Made by a program: the position numbers and the translations under genes. Under the pieces are notes generated by a model that made no database searches, had not been told where the DNA came from, and saw only the letters and a list, made by a program, of their open reading frames with translations. This document shows positions 21,036 through 25,743 of a stretch of DNA of 47,231 nt, one piece after another (the stretch's first letter is position 1; each line of letters opens with the position of its first letter). Source of the stretch: Promethearchaeota archaeon (GTDB lineage Archaea > Asgardarchaeota > Lokiarchaeia > Sigyniarchaeales > SOKP01); the NCBI GenBank assembly GCA_011364975.1, contig RDOE01000018.1, positions 1-47,231 on the forward strand. The letters are read 5' to 3'.

Positions 21036-21120
21036 AATATTTCCTATTAAAAATTAAATGTACTACTACAAATATATGATATAATTGATGCTTTAAAAAC
21101 GTTTTTCAATAGGAATAATT

Positions 21121-21131
21121 AAAAGGTAAAA
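21121..21131 (-). terminator. Possible oligo-T terminator of the 5S precursor
   Basis: Minus-strand TTTTACCTTTT a few nt downstream of the outer processing stem. Confidence 0.35.
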
Positions 21132-21136
21132 TCACT

Positions 21137-21348
21137 TTAACCACATTACTAAAAAGCGATTCCGGGTTCGGATGGGACCGGGTACTATCCTGTATCGCCA
21201 TGACCGTAGCCGAAGCTACAGTTTACAAGTTCCCACAAATCGCAAATCTGCAGTGCGAAGATATAATAGCACTTTTGCAGTACTATTTGCAACGCAAAAC
21301 AGTTTAACTTCCGGCGCTTTAGCGTTTCGCTACAGTAAATGTGGTTAA
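21137..21348 (-). repeat. Inverted repeats forming a processing stem and BHB/BHL motif around the 5S gene
   Basis: Perfect 11-bp inverted repeat TTAACCACATT (21137-21147) / AATGTGGTTAA (21338-21348); AAGCG/CGCTT (21315-21319 / 21154-21158); CCGG/CCGG central helix (21311-21314 / 21162-21165). Confidence 0.85.
21160..21308 (-). rRNA. rrf: 5S rRNA gene, circularly permuted (3' half 21308-21215, UUCG linker 21214-21211, 5' half 21210-21160), with helix IV expansion
   Basis: The 5' half GCTACGGTCATGGCG...ACCCGGTCCCATCCGAACCCGGAA and the 3' half GTTAAACTG...AGTACTG...GGGAAC...ACTGTAGC match the 5S consensus. Helices I-V and loop E (AGUA/GAA) all fold by hand. Confidence 0.9.
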
Positions 21349-21365
21349 CATTTAATTACCAACCA

Positions 21366-21380
21366 TTTTATAAGCTCGGC
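21366..21380 (-). promoter_or_regulatory. BRE-TATA promoter of the 5S precursor
   Basis: Minus-strand GCCGAGC-TTATAAAA. Standard archaeal spacing places the start at about 21344-21349, the beginning of the outer stem. Confidence 0.65.
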
Positions 21381-21533
21381 TATTTTCTTCTGAAATGCTT
21401 TACTTATATGGTTATGAGTAATTAGAATAGTTAAAAGTACTAATTAAACTTTTTCATAATGATCAATTAAATTTAAAAAGCATGGTTTTAAATGGACTAA
21501 CATTATTACTATGAAATTAGAACCCTCAAATAA

Positions 21534-23693
21534 CTAATTTCTCTTAATTTCTGTTGACACGCGTTTACATTTTTTGATATTTATATAGAGAATTGACAAT
21601 GAGATGCTAGCTAATCCAATAATCATGATACTTGAGACGATAAGAGCATAATCACTGAAAGGCTTTGCAATAGTAAAATTAAATGAATCTTCATAGAGAA
21701 AAGTAGTTTTGTTGCTATAATCCCGGGCAACAAACATAAAGGAATACGCCCCAGGTACTAGTTTATTTAAGGTCAGATTAAAATCAAAATTATTTTCATC
21801 AAAATCATTAATTATTCTATGTATCGAAAAATCATGAGAATTATCCTTAAATAGTAATAAAATAATACTTTCAATTCCAGAATGATTATCATACGCCTTT
21901 ACTGAAAAATGTACATTATCTGATACGGTTGGTTCGTTTGGATATCGATAAGCATTAGAAATTACTGGTTGTTCCGAATCTGGAATAGTTATAAAATTAT
22001 AGGATGTTGGAATTAAATTATGCCCAGTTATAAGAACACTATAGTTTTCATTGACTTGAGCCGGTAATCTAAATTTTACATTGCCACTTTTATCCGCATA
22101 GATCGTTCTATTTTTTCCATCTTCTGTTCTGAAATTCAATCTAGCGTAGGGTACCGTGTTATTAAAAATGTCCTTTATTTGTAAAGCAACCAATTGGCCC
22201 TCATAATAAGTTCCTGTAAATGGATTTGAAGCACTTATAGGTATATTTGTATATATATCCACTTCAGGATCTCCTAATAAATTATATGCCAATAGATTTT
22301 TCCGTTCCCACTCTAGCTCCGTAGAAACACTTGGTTGGTTAAAATAATCGCTATTTAGATAAGAAACTTTTGACTCATATAACGCCATTCCCTGCTGAAA
22401 TTTCTTTTCTTCAAAAAATTCTTTCCAGAACAGTTTTGCATTTGCTCGATTCAGCTTCTCAAGATTCGTATCATTCTCAAAATACCAAGTTACTCTTATT
22501 CCACCTATATACCCTATTGCTCCAGAATTTGATTGCTTTATTAAGCGCTCACCTATACTATCATCACCTTTATCATAAGAGGCGGTAGTACACACGTCTG
22601 CATATACAAGTGAAGGCATATTTATGTTAGTACTTGATAAAGCATCGGTATTACTGTAAAAATTCTCACTAGTTGCATCTGTAAAACGTGTAGGATCTCC
22701 ATGACCTGCAAAAATTATTGTTGAATATCCTGAATTTAAATTATTACGAAAGCTTGTGTTGTTAAGACCCCCTAATTGGTTTAATAAAGGAGGTGCTGTT
22801 GGACTAAAAGAGCTAGTGGTTTTTGTTAAATGAGTAAAATTCATATCAGAAAGAACATAATTTTGCCAAATGTATTCCGTAAGACGAGCTTCATCTTCTG
22901 GAGGATTATAAGAAGAAATTCCTCCTGCTAAAAGCATTCTATTCATCCAATTTCCAATATTCATAGCTTTTTCATAATTTAATGTTTTATTTATCATCAA
23001 AGATAACTCTAATGGATTATTTGCAGGTAATCGTCCAACATAAACTTCAGGAATCCAAGAAATTTCATCAACACTCCCTGATTTTGCAGCAGACTCTCCA
23101 AATATGCCATTACCATTATCATCCCAAGTACCACTAAGGTCCGAATAATAGAAATCAGTAGGTTTATAATATTCATCCCAGTTTGAGTATTCCGATTCAC
23201 CCTCAATTTCAGCAGTATCAGGATTATAAACGTATCTAATTGGTATTAAATTTTCATCAGCATCCCCTGCTAAGAGAACCCATCTAATATTATGGGAGGA
23301 ATAAAACGATTTAATCATATTTCTTATCTTTTCTGCTTTATCCCTGCCTTCATAATCGGAATAATTATATAATGCTATGGTTTTAACCCCCTTATAATTT
23401 TTCCATTCCACTAATGGAGTTACCGCATCTAAATAACTCGTATCATTTATAATAACTAACATCTCAATCTTTTGTTCATACCATAATTCATTTAATTCTT
23501 TATAATTGATAGGAGGTAGTGAATTAAGATCTATTTCAGGTATAATTGAGCTTAAGTTTAAATTTAATTTGTTATTTATATCGTGATTATCATAAAGGGG
23601 TTCATATTTTGGAATAATTAAACTAAAGAGTGGCAGAAGAATTACTAGTATAACAAAAATAAATTTAAATTTCTTATATTGATTTAGAACCAT
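21534..23693 (-). CDS. Peptidase C25 (gingipain-like) cysteine protease, membrane anchored
   Basis: WVLLAGD, PTDFYYSDL, PEVYVGRLP, catalytic FAGHG and ADVCTT, GAIGYIG, YNLLGDP; N- and C-terminal hydrophobic helices. Confidence 0.9.
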   Translation of the reverse strand: MVLNQYKKFKFIFVILVILLPLFSLIIPKYEPLYDNHDINNKLNLNLSSIIPEIDLNSLPPINYKELNELWYEQKIEMLVIINDTSYLDAVTPLVEWKNYKGVKTIALYNYSDYEGRDKAEKIRNMIKSFYSSHNIRWVLLAGDADENLIPIRYVYNPDTAEIEGESEYSNWDEYYKPTDFYYSDLSGTWDDNGNGIFGESAAKSGSVDEISWIPEVYVGRLPANNPLELSLMINKTLNYEKAMNIGNWMNRMLLAGGISSYNPPEDEARLTEYIWQNYVLSDMNFTHLTKTTSSFSPTAPPLLNQLGGLNNTSFRNNLNSGYSTIIFAGHGDPTRFTDATSENFYSNTDALSSTNINMPSLVYADVCTTASYDKGDDSIGERLIKQSNSGAIGYIGGIRVTWYFENDTNLEKLNRANAKLFWKEFFEEKKFQQGMALYESKVSYLNSDYFNQPSVSTELEWERKNLLAYNLLGDPEVDIYTNIPISASNPFTGTYYEGQLVALQIKDIFNNTVPYARLNFRTEDGKNRTIYADKSGNVKFRLPAQVNENYSVLITGHNLIPTSYNFITIPDSEQPVISNAYRYPNEPTVSDNVHFSVKAYDNHSGIESIILLLFKDNSHDFSIHRIINDFDENNFDFNLTLNKLVPGAYSFMFVARDYSNKTTFLYEDSFNFTIAKPFSDYALIVSSIMIIGLASISLSILYINIKKCKRVSTEIKRN

Positions 23694-24180: not shown

Positions 24181-25743
24181 ATGGCGCACAATTTAGAAGA
24201 TGTAGCAGGTATCGGAAAAGCAACTGCAGACAGATTAAGAGCAGCTGGAATTGACACTGTAGAAAAGTTGGCGAACTCAGATCCAGATATGTTAATCGAC
24301 CTTAAAATTAAGGGTGTCGGAGAATCAACTGCCCTTAAGTACATTAGTAATGCCAAAACACTTCTTGAAGATATACAAGACGCTATTCCATCTGATACCA
24401 AACAAGAAACAAAAATACCTAAGGAACCTGAGAAACAAAAAGTAGCTAAAAAACCAGATGAAGGGAAACTTAAATCCTTAAAGGAATTTCTTAAAAAACA
24501 AGCAGAATGCAATATTGGGTTAGTAGGGCACGTAGACCACGGCAAAACGACCCTGGTAAAAGCTTTGACTGGAGATTGGACAGATAGACATTCTGAAGAG
24601 CAAGAAAGAGGTATCTCAATAAAGCTTGGTTATTCAAATGCAACAATTCTTTATTGTTCTGTATGTGATGAATATTTAACTTCATATATGGCAGAGAAAG
24701 AAAAAGAACAAGGTAGACCTAAATTTACATGCCCAAAATGTTTAGAAACCTTAGAATTCAAAAGAAATATCTCATTTGTGGATGCTCCGGGACATGAAAT
24801 TTTAATGGCAACTATGCTTAGTGGTGCCTCATTAATGGACGGAGCTTGTTTGTTGATCGCAGCTGATGAAAAATGTCCTCAACCACAAACGAGAGAACAT
24901 TTGGCAGCATTAAACATCGCAGGAATTAAAAAAGTAATTATAATCCAAAATAAGATTGATGCGGTTTCTAAAGAACAAGCACAAGAGAATTATATGCAAA
25001 TAAAAAGATTCATAAAAGGAACTGTTGCTGAAAATGCTCCAATTATACCTGTTTCTGCTGTTTTTGGTGCAAACATAAACTTAGTAGTCCGAGCTTTTGA
25101 AGAGGTAATCCCAACTCCAGAATTAAAAGATAAGGAAGAATTTCAGTTTTTAGTAGCACGTTCTTTTGATATTAATCGTCCCGGTACAGAGATAGAGAAA
25201 TTGAAGGGGGGTGTTATTGGTGGTTCCGTATTAAAAGGGAAAATAAAAGTTGGTGAAGAGATAGAAATAAAACCTGGTTTAAGAACCAAAAATTTATACT
25301 CTCCAATCAAAACCAAAGTAATAAGCATCAGTCAGGGAAATAATTTACTTGAAGAAGCTAACCCTGGTGGTCTAATAGGCTTGGGAACAAAGCTAGACCC
25401 TGCGTTGACTAAAGGAGACTCTTTAATTGGTCATTTAGTTGGAAAACCTGATACTCTACCTCAAATTATATCTGAAGTTGAGCTTGAAGTTCATTTACTT
25501 GATAGAGTAATAGGAGCCGAGGTACAAATGAAAGTGCAACAATTAAAACATAATGAAAAATTATTGTTGGTCATAGGAACTGAAAAAACAGCTGGTACTG
25601 TAACTAAGATACTAAAAAATTCCTTTATCTTAAGTTTAAATCCTCCTATTTGCCCTCCAGAAAATTTTATATTTGCCATCTCTAGAATTATAAATCGGCG
25701 TTATCGATTAATCGGGTATGGTAAAATACTCAACCATAAATAG
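24181..25743 (+). CDS. eif2g: Translation initiation factor aIF-2 gamma with N-terminal helix-hairpin-helix domain
   Basis: NIGLVGHVDHGKTT, RGISIKLGY, DAPGHEILMATMLSGA, PQPQTREH, QNKID, ARSFDINRPG, RYRLIGYG; an extra ~105 N-terminal residues. Confidence 0.95.
   Translation: MAHNLEDVAGIGKATADRLRAAGIDTVEKLANSDPDMLIDLKIKGVGESTALKYISNAKTLLEDIQDAIPSDTKQETKIPKEPEKQKVAKKPDEGKLKSLKEFLKKQAECNIGLVGHVDHGKTTLVKALTGDWTDRHSEEQERGISIKLGYSNATILYCSVCDEYLTSYMAEKEKEQGRPKFTCPKCLETLEFKRNISFVDAPGHEILMATMLSGASLMDGACLLIAADEKCPQPQTREHLAALNIAGIKKVIIIQNKIDAVSKEQAQENYMQIKRFIKGTVAENAPIIPVSAVFGANINLVVRAFEEVIPTPELKDKEEFQFLVARSFDINRPGTEIEKLKGGVIGGSVLKGKIKVGEEIEIKPGLRTKNLYSPIKTKVISISQGNNLLEEANPGGLIGLGTKLDPALTKGDSLIGHLVGKPDTLPQIISEVELEVHLLDRVIGAEVQMKVQQLKHNEKLLLVIGTEKTAGTVTKILKNSFILSLNPPICPPENFIFAISRIINRRYRLIGYGKILNHK

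What the first reader, a model, noticed from the sequence alone, without database searches (positions are those of the whole stretch)
21137..21348. Circularly permuted 5S rRNA gene predicted to be spliced into a circular RNA
Seen directly (minus strand): AAGCG-CCGG-AA|GTTAAACTG...[5S 3' half]...ACTGTAGC-TTCG-GCTACGGT...[5S 5' half]...GAAC-CCGG-AA|T-CGCTT. The two halves of 5S rRNA are in reverse order, and the normal 3' and 5' ends (helix I, ACUGUAGC/GCUACGGU) are joined by a cUUCGg tetraloop. Joining position 21160 to 21308 regenerates the conserved helix III/loop B sequence CCGAACCCGGAAGUUAA. All five helices and loop E still pair, and the unit has its own TATA box and an outer 11-bp stem, which argues for a functional gene. 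Established precedent: permuted tRNA genes (Cyanidioschyzon, Thermofilum), permuted circular SRP RNA (Thermoproteus) and BHB-dependent circular pre-16S/23S intermediates in archaea. I know of no described permuted 5S gene, but that needs a literature check. Inference: the mature 5S is a 149-nt covalently closed circle, or a circle reopened at the UUCG loop. Standard 5S models would find only fragments of such a gene.
Basis: partly seen in the sequence, partly recalled or inferred. Interest (0 to 1): 0.97.

Follow-up and report, generated by a model that had tools for sequence, protein, structure and literature searches.

The report
Permuted, intron-bearing 5S rRNA gene
The only 5S ribosomal RNA gene of this Asgard archaeon is written with its two halves in swapped order and carries a small intron, so the cell probably has to cut and rejoin the transcript into a closed ring, and the same layout turns up in many Asgard families.

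Summary

**The gene.** Window 21308..21160 (minus strand) is the only 5S rRNA candidate in a 99%-complete Asgard (Promethearchaeota) genome. Its order is 3' half, UUCG cap on helix I, 5' half. Rfam's collinear model scores 21.7 bits (cut-off 38). A covariance model built in the permuted order scores 123 bits.

**The processing signal.** Leader and trailer form a bulge-helix-bulge (BHB) site. Cutting it and joining the ends restores the conserved helix III sequence.

The "long helix IV" is a 29-nt BHB intron (21274..21246). The predicted product is a 120-nt circle, not 149 nt.

**Comparative support.**
- 38 of 42 genomes of the genus carry one copy.
- 22 of 22 analysable genes, in four architectures (two break points, two intron sites), all reduce to circles of 120-121 nt.
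- 96% of helix cells pair, and 9 of 36 pairs show compensatory changes.

**Spread.** The layout occurs in the whole family, closed genomes included, and in many other Asgard families. Families with a canonical 5S gene lack it.

**Enzymes.** The genome encodes two EndA paralogues and RtcB.

**What is missing.** There are no RNA data, so joining and circularity are inferred. Eight literature searches found no archaeal permuted 5S gene.

The parts
21441..21454 (-). A/T-rich box (purine run plus TTTAATTA), candidate BRE/TATA promoter of the 5S transcript
   Evidence: Located. The TTTAATTA word is kept in most aligned genus members and in most of the 15 loci of other genera of the family. The promoter role is inferred, not tested.
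21361..21413 (-). Conserved hairpin in the 5' leader, upstream of the 5S unit; function unknown
   Evidence: Arms at 21413..21403 and 21374..21361. Both arms are conserved, with changes on both sides in some genomes (read by eye in the alignment; not counted formally).
21334..21348 (-). Outer processing stem, 5' arm
   Evidence: Pairs with 21150..21137. It forms in the precursor MFE and in the leader/trailer co-fold. The ACCAC/GUGGU core is conserved in the genus.
21320..21333 (-). Small leader hairpin between the outer stem and the BHB
   Evidence: Located. A hairpin at the same place, with different sequence, is seen in relatives.
21315..21320 (-). BHB outer helix, leader strand; pairs with 21158..21153
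   Evidence: 6 bp in the window and 1-6 bp across 22 genes.
21311..21314 (-). BHB central 4-bp helix, leader strand (CCGG); pairs with trailer 21165..21162
   Evidence: 4 of 4 pairs in 22 of 22 genes. It covaries: CCGG:CCGG in 11 genes, CUGG:CCAG in 9, CUGG:CCGG in 2. Other families use CGUG:CACG and CCGA:UCGG.
21308..21310 (-). Leader 3-nt bulge AAG; predicted cut between 21309 and 21308
   Evidence: The cut position is inferred from the usual BHB rule and from the product it gives.
21275..21308 (-). Exon piece 1: end of helix III, helix II 3' strand, helix V and loop E 5' strands, helix IV 5' strand
   Evidence: The intron-less orthologue aligns to RF00001 positions 52-117.
21246..21274 (-). 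29-nt BHB intron in the loop of helix IV (loop D)
   Evidence: Geometry: 3 bp, 3-nt bulge, 4 bp, 3-nt bulge, 5 bp. Its removal gives the sequence of the intron-less G019 gene in this region. Splicing raises the profile score from 32.2 to 44.6 bits. Against: the BHB fold is not the MFE of the isolated region.
21215..21245 (-). Exon piece 2: helix IV 3' strand, loop E and helix V 3' strands, helix I 3' strand
21211..21214 (-). UUCG tetraloop capping helix I, where a normal 5S RNA has its two ends
   Evidence: The cap is 4 nt long in all 22 genus genes while its sequence varies: UUCG, UACG, UAUG, UUUG, UUAG, CUCG.
21160..21210 (-). 5S 5' half: helix I 5' strand, loop A, helix II 5' strand, loop B, helix III, loop C
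   Evidence: RF00001 positions 1-51, 29.2 bits, E 5.5e-5.
21159..21161 (-). Trailer 3-nt bulge AAU; predicted cut between 21160 and 21159
   Evidence: Joining 21160 to 21308 restores the conserved helix III / loop B sequence.
21153..21158 (-). BHB outer helix, trailer strand
21137..21150 (-). Outer processing stem, 3' arm
21114..21131 (-). T-rich stretch after the outer stem, possible archaeal terminator
   Evidence: Sequence only. The terminator role is inferred.

Best explanation
This is the working, and only, 5S rRNA gene of an Asgard archaeon, encoded in circularly permuted order and interrupted by a small intron.

Proposed pathway:
1. One transcript is made. It probably starts after the A/T box at 21454..21441.
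2. The transcript holds a leader, the 5S 3' half (with a 29-nt intron in loop D), a UUCG loop that closes helix I, the 5S 5' half, and a trailer.
3. Leader and trailer pair into an outer stem plus a bulge-helix-bulge site. In that site a leader CCGG stands in for the 5' strand of helix III.
4. The tRNA-splicing endonuclease cuts both bulges (21309|21308 and 21160|21159) and the two bulges of the intron. Here it is a catalytic plus a degenerate paralogue, so probably the broad-specificity heterotetramer.
5. RtcB joins the ends.
6. The product is a 120-nt covalently closed 5S rRNA with all five helices and loop E. It is probably used as a circle in the 50S subunit.

Shown: gene order, conservation, covariation, BHB geometry, constant product size, and presence of the enzymes. 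Inferred: cutting, joining, and circularity of the mature form.
For: **Sole candidate.** RF00001 at E<=10 finds only this locus in the own genome, which is 3.74 Mb and 99.25% complete.

**Both halves are 5S.**
- The 5' half matches model positions 1-51 at 29.2 bits.
- The intron-less orthologous 3' half matches positions 52-117, though only at 11.9 bits.
- In a relative with the other break point, the part upstream of the cap matches positions 35-118 at 30.5 bits.

**Re-ordered sequences look canonical.**
- All 22 re-ordered genus sequences give one full-length hit each (31-50 bits) to a profile of 9 canonical 5S genes of the sister family. The native order gives 12.1 bits, partial.
- They align collinearly with those genes and fold into the three-way junction.

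**Covariation** on 20 genes and 36 pairs:
- 96.4% of cells pair, against 33-45% when the partners are slid.
- 9 pairs show changes on both sides.
- 0 of 500 shuffles reach the observed values.

**BHB.**
- 22 of 22 junctions have 4 of 4 central pairs and 3-nt bulges, with compensatory changes.
- In other families the flanking helix is 10-15 bp.
- The leader/trailer co-fold is -30.4 kcal/mol, against -16.4 +/- 2.5 for 200 shuffled trailers.

**Constant product.** Four architectures all reduce to circles of 120-121 nt, 22 of 22: 11 plain, 3 with a loop D intron, 6 with a loop C intron, 2 with the break in loop C.

**Distribution.**
- 38 of 42 genomes of the genus have one copy.
- The permuted-order model R1 hits 15 of 15 loci of other genera of the family and 20 of 20 loci examined from other families, single-contig genomes included.
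- R1 gives at most 21.3 bits on canonical loci.
- In a phylum sample, R1 hits 27 of 29 genomes of family f1 (excluding G000) and 0 of 32 (f9) and 0 of 14 (f14), the families where RF00001 finds canonical genes.

**Enzymes.** The genome has two EndA paralogues and one RtcB. The paralogues are 31% identical, and the second lacks the Tyr and His aligned to the first.
Against: - There is no RNA evidence at all. No RNA run holds the locus, and the contigs laid show no joints.
- The 3' half of the window gives no Rfam hit on its own. That of an intron-less relative scores only 11.9 bits, E 2.4.
- In the genus, the helix next to the leader bulge on the 5S side is absent, or 3 bp if that bulge is read as 2 nt. 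The leader/trailer helix is only 1-6 bp. The site is therefore a relaxed BHB.
- BHB-like geometry with short flanks is common by chance: 68-98 candidates per locus. The motif alone proves little.
- The leader/trailer co-fold MFE keeps the CCGG:CCGG helix but uses another register for the flanking helix and leaves a 2-nt trailer bulge.
- The intron's BHB fold (-9.6 kcal/mol) is not the MFE (-15.9) of the isolated region. Its central helix has 0.22 ensemble probability.
- 4 of 42 genomes of the genus show no copy. Two of them are 95% complete.
- Nothing tested here tells a circle from a circle that is later reopened.
Confidence: 0.8

Rival explanations
1. The transcript is cut and circularised as above, but the circle is only an intermediate. 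It is reopened in or next to the helix I cap to give an ordinary linear 5S rRNA, as happens with permuted tRNA genes.
For: Permuted tRNA genes work this way (recalled; cited in passages of PMC4267664). Circular pre-16S and pre-23S RNAs are classically held to be reopened (passages of PMC12918454).
Against: The cap is only 4 nt in 22 of 22 genus genes. Its sequence varies while its length is constant, and several versions belong to the stable UNCG type. There is no conserved cleavage signal, and no known enzyme trims a tetraloop. Engineered E. coli 5S with its native ends tied by a tetraloop works in ribosomes (passages of PMC7283268). The permuted SRP RNA of Thermoproteus stays circular (abstract of PMC4731332).
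Confidence: 0.12
2. The endonuclease site serves only to trim leader and trailer. The ends are never joined, and the ribosome uses a linear, permuted 5S RNA with its ends in helix III (or in loop C in relatives), like the permuted mitochondrial 5S RNA of brown algae.
For: Organellar permuted 5S RNAs are permuted in the final product (passages of PMC4267664). Openings at loops C and D are tolerated in engineered 5S (passages of PMC7283268). No junction-spanning RNA has been seen here (an absence of data, not a negative result).
Against: The same genes carry BHB introns, whose exons must be ligated for helix IV or loop C to exist. RtcB is present. All BHB-excised archaeal RNAs named in the papers seen are joined (abstract of PMC4731332; passages of PMC12918454). 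Two break points give the same circle but would give different linear molecules.
Confidence: 0.06
3. The 29-nt segment in helix IV is not an intron but a retained expansion of loop D, so the product is the 149-nt circle the first reader proposed.
For: The BHB fold is not the thermodynamically preferred fold of the isolated region. The segment occurs in only 3 of 22 genus genes, which fits a lineage-specific expansion equally well.
Against: The BHB geometry is exact in all 3 genes (3 bp, 3 nt, 4 bp, 3 nt, 5 bp). Excision at the standard bulge positions reproduces the intron-less orthologue's sequence and the 120-nt size. The score against canonical 5S rises from 32.2 to 44.6 bits on removal. 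Other inserts in loop D in other genera of the family are also flanked by BHB-like sites; this was read by eye, and G109 was resolved by script.
Confidence: 0.1
4. The locus is a dead or mis-assembled 5S relic, and the true 5S gene is simply missing from the draft assembly.
For: The assembly has 200 contigs and 6% contamination. rRNA genes often fail to be binned.
Against: The same layout is a single copy in 38 of 42 genomes of the genus. It occurs in single-contig genomes of this and other families. Compensatory changes are present in all five helices, and synteny next to a Peptidase_C25 gene is conserved in 10 of 11 related loci. No canonical 5S was found in 129 of 131 genomes of the family sampled, and the 2 canonical hits were not examined further.
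Confidence: 0.02

Closest known systems
Permuted SRP RNA gene of Thermoproteus tenax (Plagens et al. 2015, PMC4731332; abstract read)
   Same: A universal structured RNA is encoded with its parts in swapped order. [quoted passage not shown] This is the closest mechanistic precedent.
   Different: The RNA is different (5S rRNA, a ribosome component). The spread here is over many families of a phylum rather than a few species. The break point differs between lineages, and extra BHB introns sit inside the same gene. Circularity was shown there by RNA-seq and cleavage assays; here it is only inferred.
Circularly permuted tRNA genes (Cyanidioschyzon merolae; also Thermofilum), recalled and cited in passages of PMC4267664
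   Same: The 3' half lies upstream of the 5' half, a BHB is formed by leader and trailer, and there is a circular intermediate.
   Different: In tRNAs the circle is reopened by RNase P and tRNase Z at the normal ends. Here the normal ends are joined by a 4-nt loop with no known processing signal.
Circular pre-16S/23S rRNA, circular 23S rRNA in ribosomes (PMC12918454; passages read) and permuted 23S rRNA of Pyrococcus/Thermococcus (PMC7758197, listing only; bioRxiv 10.64898/2026.03.23.713588, passages read)
   Same: BHB-dependent excision and ligation of an rRNA, with circular or permuted rRNA kept in the ribosome.
   Different: In those cases the genes are collinear and the permutation arises at the RNA level. 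PMC12918454 states that 5S rRNA is not part of this pathway. Here the gene itself is permuted, and circularisation is needed to restore a helix.
Permuted mitochondrial 5S rRNA of brown algae and other stramenopiles (Valach et al. 2014, PMC4267664; passages read)
   Same: A natural 5S rRNA whose helix I is a closed hairpin and whose ends lie elsewhere.
   Different: It is organellar, with ends at the junction of domains alpha and gamma. There is no BHB and no ligation, and the final RNA stays permuted and linear. No Rfam family other than RF00001 was reported at the locus.
Engineered circularly permuted 5S rRNA in E. coli (Huang et al. 2020, PMC7283268; passages read)
   Same: The native ends are tied by a tetraloop and new openings are placed at loop C or loop D. 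These are the same places where these natural genes have a break point or introns.
   Different: It is man-made and fused into 23S rRNA, not a free circle.
Archaeal BHB introns in tRNA and rRNA genes
   Same: The 29-nt insert has the standard helix-bulge-helix-bulge-helix geometry.
   Different: The host gene is 5S rRNA. One search for 5S introns listed no paper describing one.

Membership tests
5S rRNA (Rfam RF00001) | Collinear match to the covariance model at or above the gathering score (38 bits) | tested here: not met
   Native order scores 21.7 bits, and only the 5' part is truly aligned. There is no match at gathering level in the window. The failure is expected for a permuted gene.
5S rRNA (Rfam RF00001) | Each half matches the corresponding part of the model | tested here: met
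   5' half: positions 1-51, 29.2 bits, E 5.5e-5. 3' half of an intron-less orthologue: positions 52-117, but only 11.9 bits, E 2.4. Relative with the other break: positions 35-118, 30.5 bits. The window's own 3' half gives no hit because of the intron.
5S rRNA (Rfam RF00001) | Three-way junction with helices I-V, supported by covariation | tested here: met
   96.4% of 714 cells pair. 9 of 36 pairs have changes on both sides. 0 of 500 shuffles reach this, and slid controls give 33-45%. The MFE of a re-ordered orthologue is the canonical fold.
5S rRNA (Rfam RF00001) | Full-length similarity to canonical 5S once re-ordered | tested here: met
   nhmmer profile of 9 canonical genes of the sister family: 44.6 bits, profile positions 4-114, E 2.2e-14. 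All 22 of 22 genus genes score 31-50 bits. Infernal could not be run on re-ordered sequence.
5S rRNA (Rfam RF00001) | Incorporated in the 50S subunit | not testable with these tools
   Needs ribosome purification or cryo-EM.
BHB-processed permuted RNA genes (permuted tRNA, Thermoproteus SRP RNA) | The 3' part is encoded upstream of the 5' part, and the normal ends are linked by a short intervening sequence | tested here: met
BHB-processed permuted RNA genes (permuted tRNA, Thermoproteus SRP RNA) | Leader and trailer form a bulge-helix-bulge site whose cleavage and ligation restore the conserved sequence | tested here: met
   22 of 22 genes have a 4-bp central helix and 3-nt bulges with covariation. 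The strict motif with a 10-15 bp flank and the right junction was found in 10 of 19 loci of other families. Caveat: the site is relaxed on the 5S side, and the motif is common by chance with short flanks.
BHB-processed permuted RNA genes (permuted tRNA, Thermoproteus SRP RNA) | Splicing endonuclease and RNA ligase encoded in the genome | tested here: met
   Two PF01974 genes (102.9 and 66 bits) and one RtcB (553.7 bits).
BHB-processed permuted RNA genes (permuted tRNA, Thermoproteus SRP RNA) | Junction-spanning (circular) RNA observed | not testable with these tools
   No RNA holder was listed and the contigs laid show no joints.
Archaeal BHB intron | Helix, 3-nt bulge, 4-bp helix, 3-nt bulge, helix | tested here: met
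   3 bp / AAA / 4 bp / AUU / 5 bp in the window, and the same geometry in G013 and G022. It is not the MFE of the isolated region.
Archaeal BHB intron | Removal restores the uninterrupted conserved sequence | tested here: met
   The spliced window sequence equals the intron-less G019 gene in this region, and the product is 120 nt. The score gain is 12.4 bits.
Permuted organellar 5S rRNA (mtPerm-5S type) | Ends at the junction of domains alpha and gamma; linear permuted final product; no ligation site | tested here: not met
   Break points lie in helix III or loop C and are flanked by a BHB. No other Rfam family was reported at the locus. Family features are taken from passages of PMC4267664.

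The most novel reading that the evidence does not exclude
A covalently circular 5S rRNA, made by the tRNA-splicing machinery from permuted and sometimes intron-bearing genes, is the working form in the ribosomes of most Asgard lineages. Collinear genes survive in only a few families. Because the circle erases the break point, the gene's start can drift: at least three break points are seen. Such shifts may arise by re-insertion of copies of the circular RNA.
Probability: 0.5. Interest if true: 0.92.

Novelty: new variant of a known kind. Interest (0 to 1): 0.88.

Why it matters
- 5S rRNA is universal, and its gene is regarded as easy to find in archaea. Here it fails the standard model in a whole family. 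In the samples searched it also fails in many other Asgard families, the closest known archaeal relatives of eukaryotes.
- This would explain "missing 5S" calls in Asgard genome quality checks.
- It would add 5S rRNA to the substrates of the tRNA-splicing endonuclease.
- It would give the first natural case in which ribosome function depends on joining a permuted rRNA, and probably the first ribosomes with a circular 5S RNA.
- It would provide introns in a 5S gene.
- The shifting break points offer a natural experiment on how permuted RNA genes arise.
- The claim is directly testable with one RT-PCR on any culture or enrichment of these organisms.

Tried and rejected
**RNA evidence.** The look-up of sequencing runs listed no RNA holder. 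Read laying on X1, X3, X2 and X6 placed only three short contigs of X1 (kind unknown, 90-95% alike) and showed no joints. The three RNA runs laid nothing. This says nothing about expression.

**Rfam on the window's 3' half alone:** no hit, explained by the intron.

**Alignment A2** was dropped because the helix III 3' strand of the six genes with a loop C intron was misaligned. A1 was used instead. In A1, four rows (G021, G017, G009, G005) are off by one column at that strand, which lowers helix III to 87.5% paired.

**Automatic BHB search.**
- With strict geometry it picked the right junction as top candidate in 10 of 19 loci of other families.
- In the family's other genera it did so in only 5 of 15 loci.
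- With flanks of 3 bp or more there are 68-98 chance candidates per locus, so I do not use the motif count as evidence.

**Thermodynamic folding** did not by itself recover the BHB of the intron, nor the exact register of the leader/trailer helix.

**Rows left out.**
- G020 (L045) was left out because a contig end removes its leader.
- The two loop C break genes (L052, L053) were left out of A1, which therefore holds 20 of 22 genes.
- Model R1 used 8 of the 11 plain genes; three near-identical rows were not given.

**Not followed.** Two canonical 5S hits in family genomes (G015:C263 at 51.9 bits, G084:C68 at 80.8 bits). I suspect contaminant contigs, but this is untested.

**Whole-genome scans with R1** use stricter filters. 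They missed genomes whose loci do match when searched directly, for example G151, G157, G159 and G161. Family tallies are therefore lower bounds.

**Tools and files not available.** Supplementary files of papers were not opened. Those of PMC12918454 and PMC12558985 might list 5S junctions that I could not see.

**Literature.** Eight searches found no archaeal permuted 5S gene and no 5S intron. The library lacks most subscription journals, so this is not proof of absence.
Full report
**What is in the sequence.**
On the minus strand (coordinates) the region reads, in order:
- outer stem arm, 21348..21334
- small hairpin, 21333..21320
- 6-nt helix strand, 21320..21315
- CCGG, 21314..21311
- bulge AAG, 21310..21308
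- 94 nt that resemble the 3' part of 5S rRNA, 21308..21215
- UUCG, 21214..21211
- 51 nt that are the 5' part of 5S rRNA, 21210..21160; their last bases are CCGG (21165..21162) followed by AA
- the final U of the AAU bulge (21161..21159), then the partner helix strand, 21158..21153
- second outer stem arm, 21150..21137
- a T-rich stretch

**Is it 5S, and is the order really swapped?**
- Rfam at gathering level finds nothing in the 47-kb window.
- At E-value level it reports one forced full-length RF00001 alignment of 21.7 bits, in which only the 5' part is truly aligned.
- Given the 5' half alone, Infernal reports a 3'-truncated match to model positions 1-51 at 29.2 bits, E 5.5e-5.
- The window's 3' half alone gives no hit.
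- The orthologous 3' half of a relative without the helix IV insert aligns to positions 52-117 with the expected landmarks, but at only 11.9 bits, E 2.4.
- In a relative with another break point, the segment upstream of the cap matches positions 35-118 at 30.5 bits, E 3.7e-5.
- I could not give re-ordered sequence to Infernal. Instead I built a sequence profile from nine canonical 5S genes of the sister family and ran nhmmer in a script:
  - the re-ordered, spliced window sequence gives one hit over profile positions 4-114 (44.6 bits, E 2.2e-14);
  - the re-ordered but unspliced sequence gives 32.2 bits;
  - the native order gives a partial 12.1-bit hit;
  - all 22 re-ordered genes of the genus give full-length hits of 31-50 bits.
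- A covariance model in the permuted order (R1) was built from 8 intron-less relatives, without the window. It hits exactly 21160..21308 at 123.1 bits, E 3.2e-29.

**It is the only 5S candidate.**
The own assembly has 3.74 Mb in 200 contigs, is 99.25% complete and has 6.09% contamination. It contains no other RF00001 match at E<=10 and one copy of this unit.

**Comparative anatomy in the genus.**
- A DNA search found homologues in 22 of 24 genus genomes first sampled, and then in 38 of 42, the window's genome included.
- The four misses are 71, 81, 95 and 95% complete.
- I aligned 23 copies and processed 22 in silico. One was dropped because a contig end removes its leader.
- Four gene architectures appear:
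  - 11 plain genes, with the break in the AA bulge of helix III;
  - 3 genes with the same break plus a 29-30-nt insert in loop D (the window, G013, G022);
  - 6 genes with the same break plus a 30-31-nt insert in loop C;
  - 2 genes in which the break lies in loop C instead (G016, G024).
- I cut after the second base of each 3-nt bulge and joined the ends. Every one of the 22 then gives a circle of 120 or 121 nt: a 116-117-nt 5S sequence plus a 4-nt cap.
- The re-ordered sequences align collinearly with the canonical 5S genes of the sister family. The window's is 48-60% identical to them. The consensus fold is the usual three-way junction.
- The MFE of one re-ordered gene is the canonical fold at -31.3 kcal/mol.

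**Covariation.**
The test used an alignment of 20 genes in native order and 36 pairs covering helices I-V.
- 96.4% of 714 cells are standard pairs, against 33-45% when the partners are slid by 1-3 columns.
- 9 pairs have changes on both sides (39 cells).
- None of 500 shuffles reaches the observed paired fraction, double changes or covariation score.
- The helix I pairs next to the cap flip from C-G to G-C and from G-C to A-U in two genomes.
- Four rows are misaligned by one column at the helix III 3' strand, so that helix is under-scored.

**The processing site.**
- In all 22 genes the four bases before the leader bulge pair 4 of 4 with the four bases before the trailer bulge.
- The trailer bases are the helix III 3' strand, so the leader copies the helix III 5' strand.
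- The leader changes with it: CCGG:CCGG in 11 genes, CUGG:CCAG in 9, CUGG:CCGG in 2.
- The leader/trailer helix beside the site is 1-6 bp.
- The helix on the 5S side is missing, or 3 bp if the leader bulge is read as 2 nt. In this genus the site is therefore a relaxed BHB.
- Leader and trailer co-fold at -30.4 kcal/mol, against -16.4 +/- 2.5 for 200 shuffled trailers. The MFE keeps the CCGG:CCGG helix but uses another register next to it.
- Because both bulges begin with AA, a symmetrical shift of the cuts by one base gives the same product.

**The insert in helix IV is an intron.**
- The segment 21274..21246 is flanked by an exact BHB in all three genes that have it: a 3-bp helix, bulge AAA, the 4-bp helix CUGC:GCAG, bulge AUU (AAU in relatives) and a 5-bp helix.
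- Removing it at the standard positions gives the same sequence as the intron-less gene of G019 in this region. It brings the product to 120 nt and raises the profile score by 12.4 bits.
- Against this, the BHB fold (-9.6 kcal/mol) is not the MFE (-15.9) of the isolated 59 nt, and its central helix has 0.22 probability.
- The loop C inserts of six relatives have a 4-bp central helix, two 3-nt bulges and a 3-4-bp inner helix. Their removal restores loop C.

**Enzymes.**
- The genome has two genes with both endonuclease domains, of 200 and 205 aa and 31% identical.
- The second has Phe and Ser where the first has the Tyr and His that I recall as catalytic.
- This points to the heterotetrameric type. 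The abstract of PMC5829648, seen in the listing, says this type accepts non-canonical sites.
- One RtcB ligase gene is present.

**Spread beyond the genus.**
- *Order sample.* In a sample of 151 genomes of the order, RF00001 passes its cut-off in 12 of 14 genomes of the sister family f2. In the window's family f1 it passes in only 2 of 132 genomes (131 sampled plus G000). Both hits look foreign and were not followed.
- *Other genera of the family.* I read 15 loci from four other genera of the family. All are permuted, most with the loop C break and some with loop D inserts. One comes from a single-contig genome. R1 hits 15 of 15.
- *Phylum sample.* The sample held 151 genomes at least 80% complete.
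  - Canonical 5S at E<=1e-7 is found in f9 (30 of 32), f14 (14 of 14), f18 (2 of 2), f2 (2 of 3), f12 and f26.
  - None is found in 19 other families, including f1 (0 of 29) and f7 (0 of 17).
  - At E<=0.05 those families show weak hits, often adjacent double hits.
- *Fetched regions.* I fetched 20 such regions.
  - 18 regions from 12 families show the order 3' half, cap, 5' half. R1 hits 18 of 18 at 26.9-69.6 bits.
  - R1 also hits the loci of families f3 and f4 (45.0 and 55.5 bits).
  - On the nine canonical f2 loci R1 gives at most 21.3 bits. It gives nothing on the two f9 loci that are collinear with an insert.
  - The f3 gene appears by eye to have a third break point, between helix II and loop B. 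The strict BHB search did not resolve its junction.
- *BHB in other families.* In 10 of 19 loci a strict BHB search finds, as top candidate, a site with a 10-15-bp flanking helix. Its junction restores the conserved sequence and gives circles of 121-129 nt. The central helices are CGUG:CACG or CCGA:UCGG. The other 9 were not resolved by the strict rule.
- *Whole-genome scan with R1.* It hits f1 in 27 of 29 genomes (excluding G000) and none in f9 (0 of 32), f14 (0 of 14), f2, f12, f18 or f26. It misses some genomes that match when searched locally, so these are lower bounds.

**Context and organism.**
- The gene lies between a Peptidase_C25 gene (21534..23693, minus strand) and an unassigned 180-aa ORF.
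- Nearby genes encode a Ras-family GTPase, a PAS/GAF protein and an aIF2-gamma-like protein.
- Relatives of the peptidase are found on records titled Promethearchaeota, Hermodarchaeota or Hodarchaeota archaeon.
- In 10 of 11 of these loci R1 finds the permuted 5S 200-800 nt downstream on the same strand. The eleventh locus ends at a contig end.

**Mechanism and what is not shown.**
- Shown: gene order, uniqueness, conservation, covariation, site geometry with covariation, constant product size, and the presence of the enzymes.
- Inferred: that the endonuclease cuts these sites, that RtcB joins the ends, and that the circle is the mature form.
- For the last point I rely on three things:
  - the 4-nt cap has constant length and variable sequence;
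  - the permuted SRP RNA of Thermoproteus stays circular (abstract);
  - engineered 5S with its native ends tied by a tetraloop works in ribosomes (passages).
- No RNA data could be obtained.

**Literature.**
- Eight searches found permuted 5S only in organelles (PMC4267664; passages).
- For archaea, PMC12918454 (passages) states that circularisation concerns 16S and 23S but not 5S.
- A 2026 preprint (passages) notes that rare circular 5S forms were reported in Sulfolobus and Pyrococcus without BHB motifs.
- I found no description of a permuted archaeal 5S gene or of a 5S intron.
- The library lacks most subscription journals, and supplements were closed.

**Verdict.**
This is a real and functional feature. 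It is a new variant of the known class of BHB-processed permuted RNA genes, now in a ribosomal RNA and spread through a phylum.

Confidence:
- 0.8 for the full pathway as stated;
- above 0.95 that this is the organism's 5S gene in permuted order;
- about 0.85-0.9 that the 29-nt segment is spliced out;
- about 0.65 that the mature ribosomal form is a circle.

Noticed in passing
window 21361-21413 (minus strand): A conserved hairpin sits in the leader upstream of the 5S unit, and its arms change together in some genus members. Its function is unknown: it could be a processing element or a separate small RNA.
   Followed up: partly
window 21441-21454 (minus strand): An A/T box with TTTAATTA is kept in most aligned genus members and in most of the 15 loci of other genera of the family. 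It is the likelier promoter and would put the transcript start just before the upstream hairpin.
   Followed up: partly
window 21320-21333 (minus strand): The small leader hairpin repeats the word of the helix I 3' strand. It could be a remnant of a duplicated 5S unit and a hint at how the permuted gene arose.
   Followed up: no
L012 (G026:C63, family f3): A permuted 5S gene appears to have a third break point, between the helix II 5' strand and loop B, and a 7-nt cap on helix I. R1 scores 45 bits. Its BHB was not resolved by the strict search.
   Followed up: partly
L133 (G246:C2) and L134 (G268:C55), family f9: These are collinear 5S genes with an insert of a few tens of bases in the 3' domain. 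They score below the RF00001 cut-off (32.4 and 32.0 bits) and get no R1 hit. The insert may be an intron in an otherwise canonical gene.
   Followed up: no
L127 (G161:C1, family f15, single-contig genome): About 30 extra bases lie between the leader site and the start of the 5S sequence, with the word before the cut repeated. This could be a second processing site or an intron next to the junction.
   Followed up: no
G015:C263 (L011) and G084:C68 (L101): Two canonical 5S hits (51.9 and 80.8 bits) occur in genomes of the permuted family. The first reads like a bacterial 5S to my eye. They are probably contaminant contigs.
   Followed up: no
G233 contigs C77, C90, C106, C132 (family f25): R1 and RF00001 hits overlap at contig ends in four short contigs. 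This could be a tandem 5S array, in which permuted and collinear readings cannot be told apart.
   Followed up: no
L061-L071, downstream of the Peptidase_C25 homologue: The permuted 5S gene keeps its place 200-800 nt downstream of a Peptidase_C25 gene in 10 of 11 related loci.
   Followed up: yes
window 24181-25743 (plus strand): An aIF2-gamma-like protein (GTP_EFTU, domain 2, eIF2_C) carries an N-terminal helix-hairpin-helix domain.
   Followed up: no
window 21160-21264, run X1: One 105-base contig of a run of unknown kind begins exactly at 21160, the predicted trailer cut. This may be coincidence and is not used as evidence.
   Followed up: no
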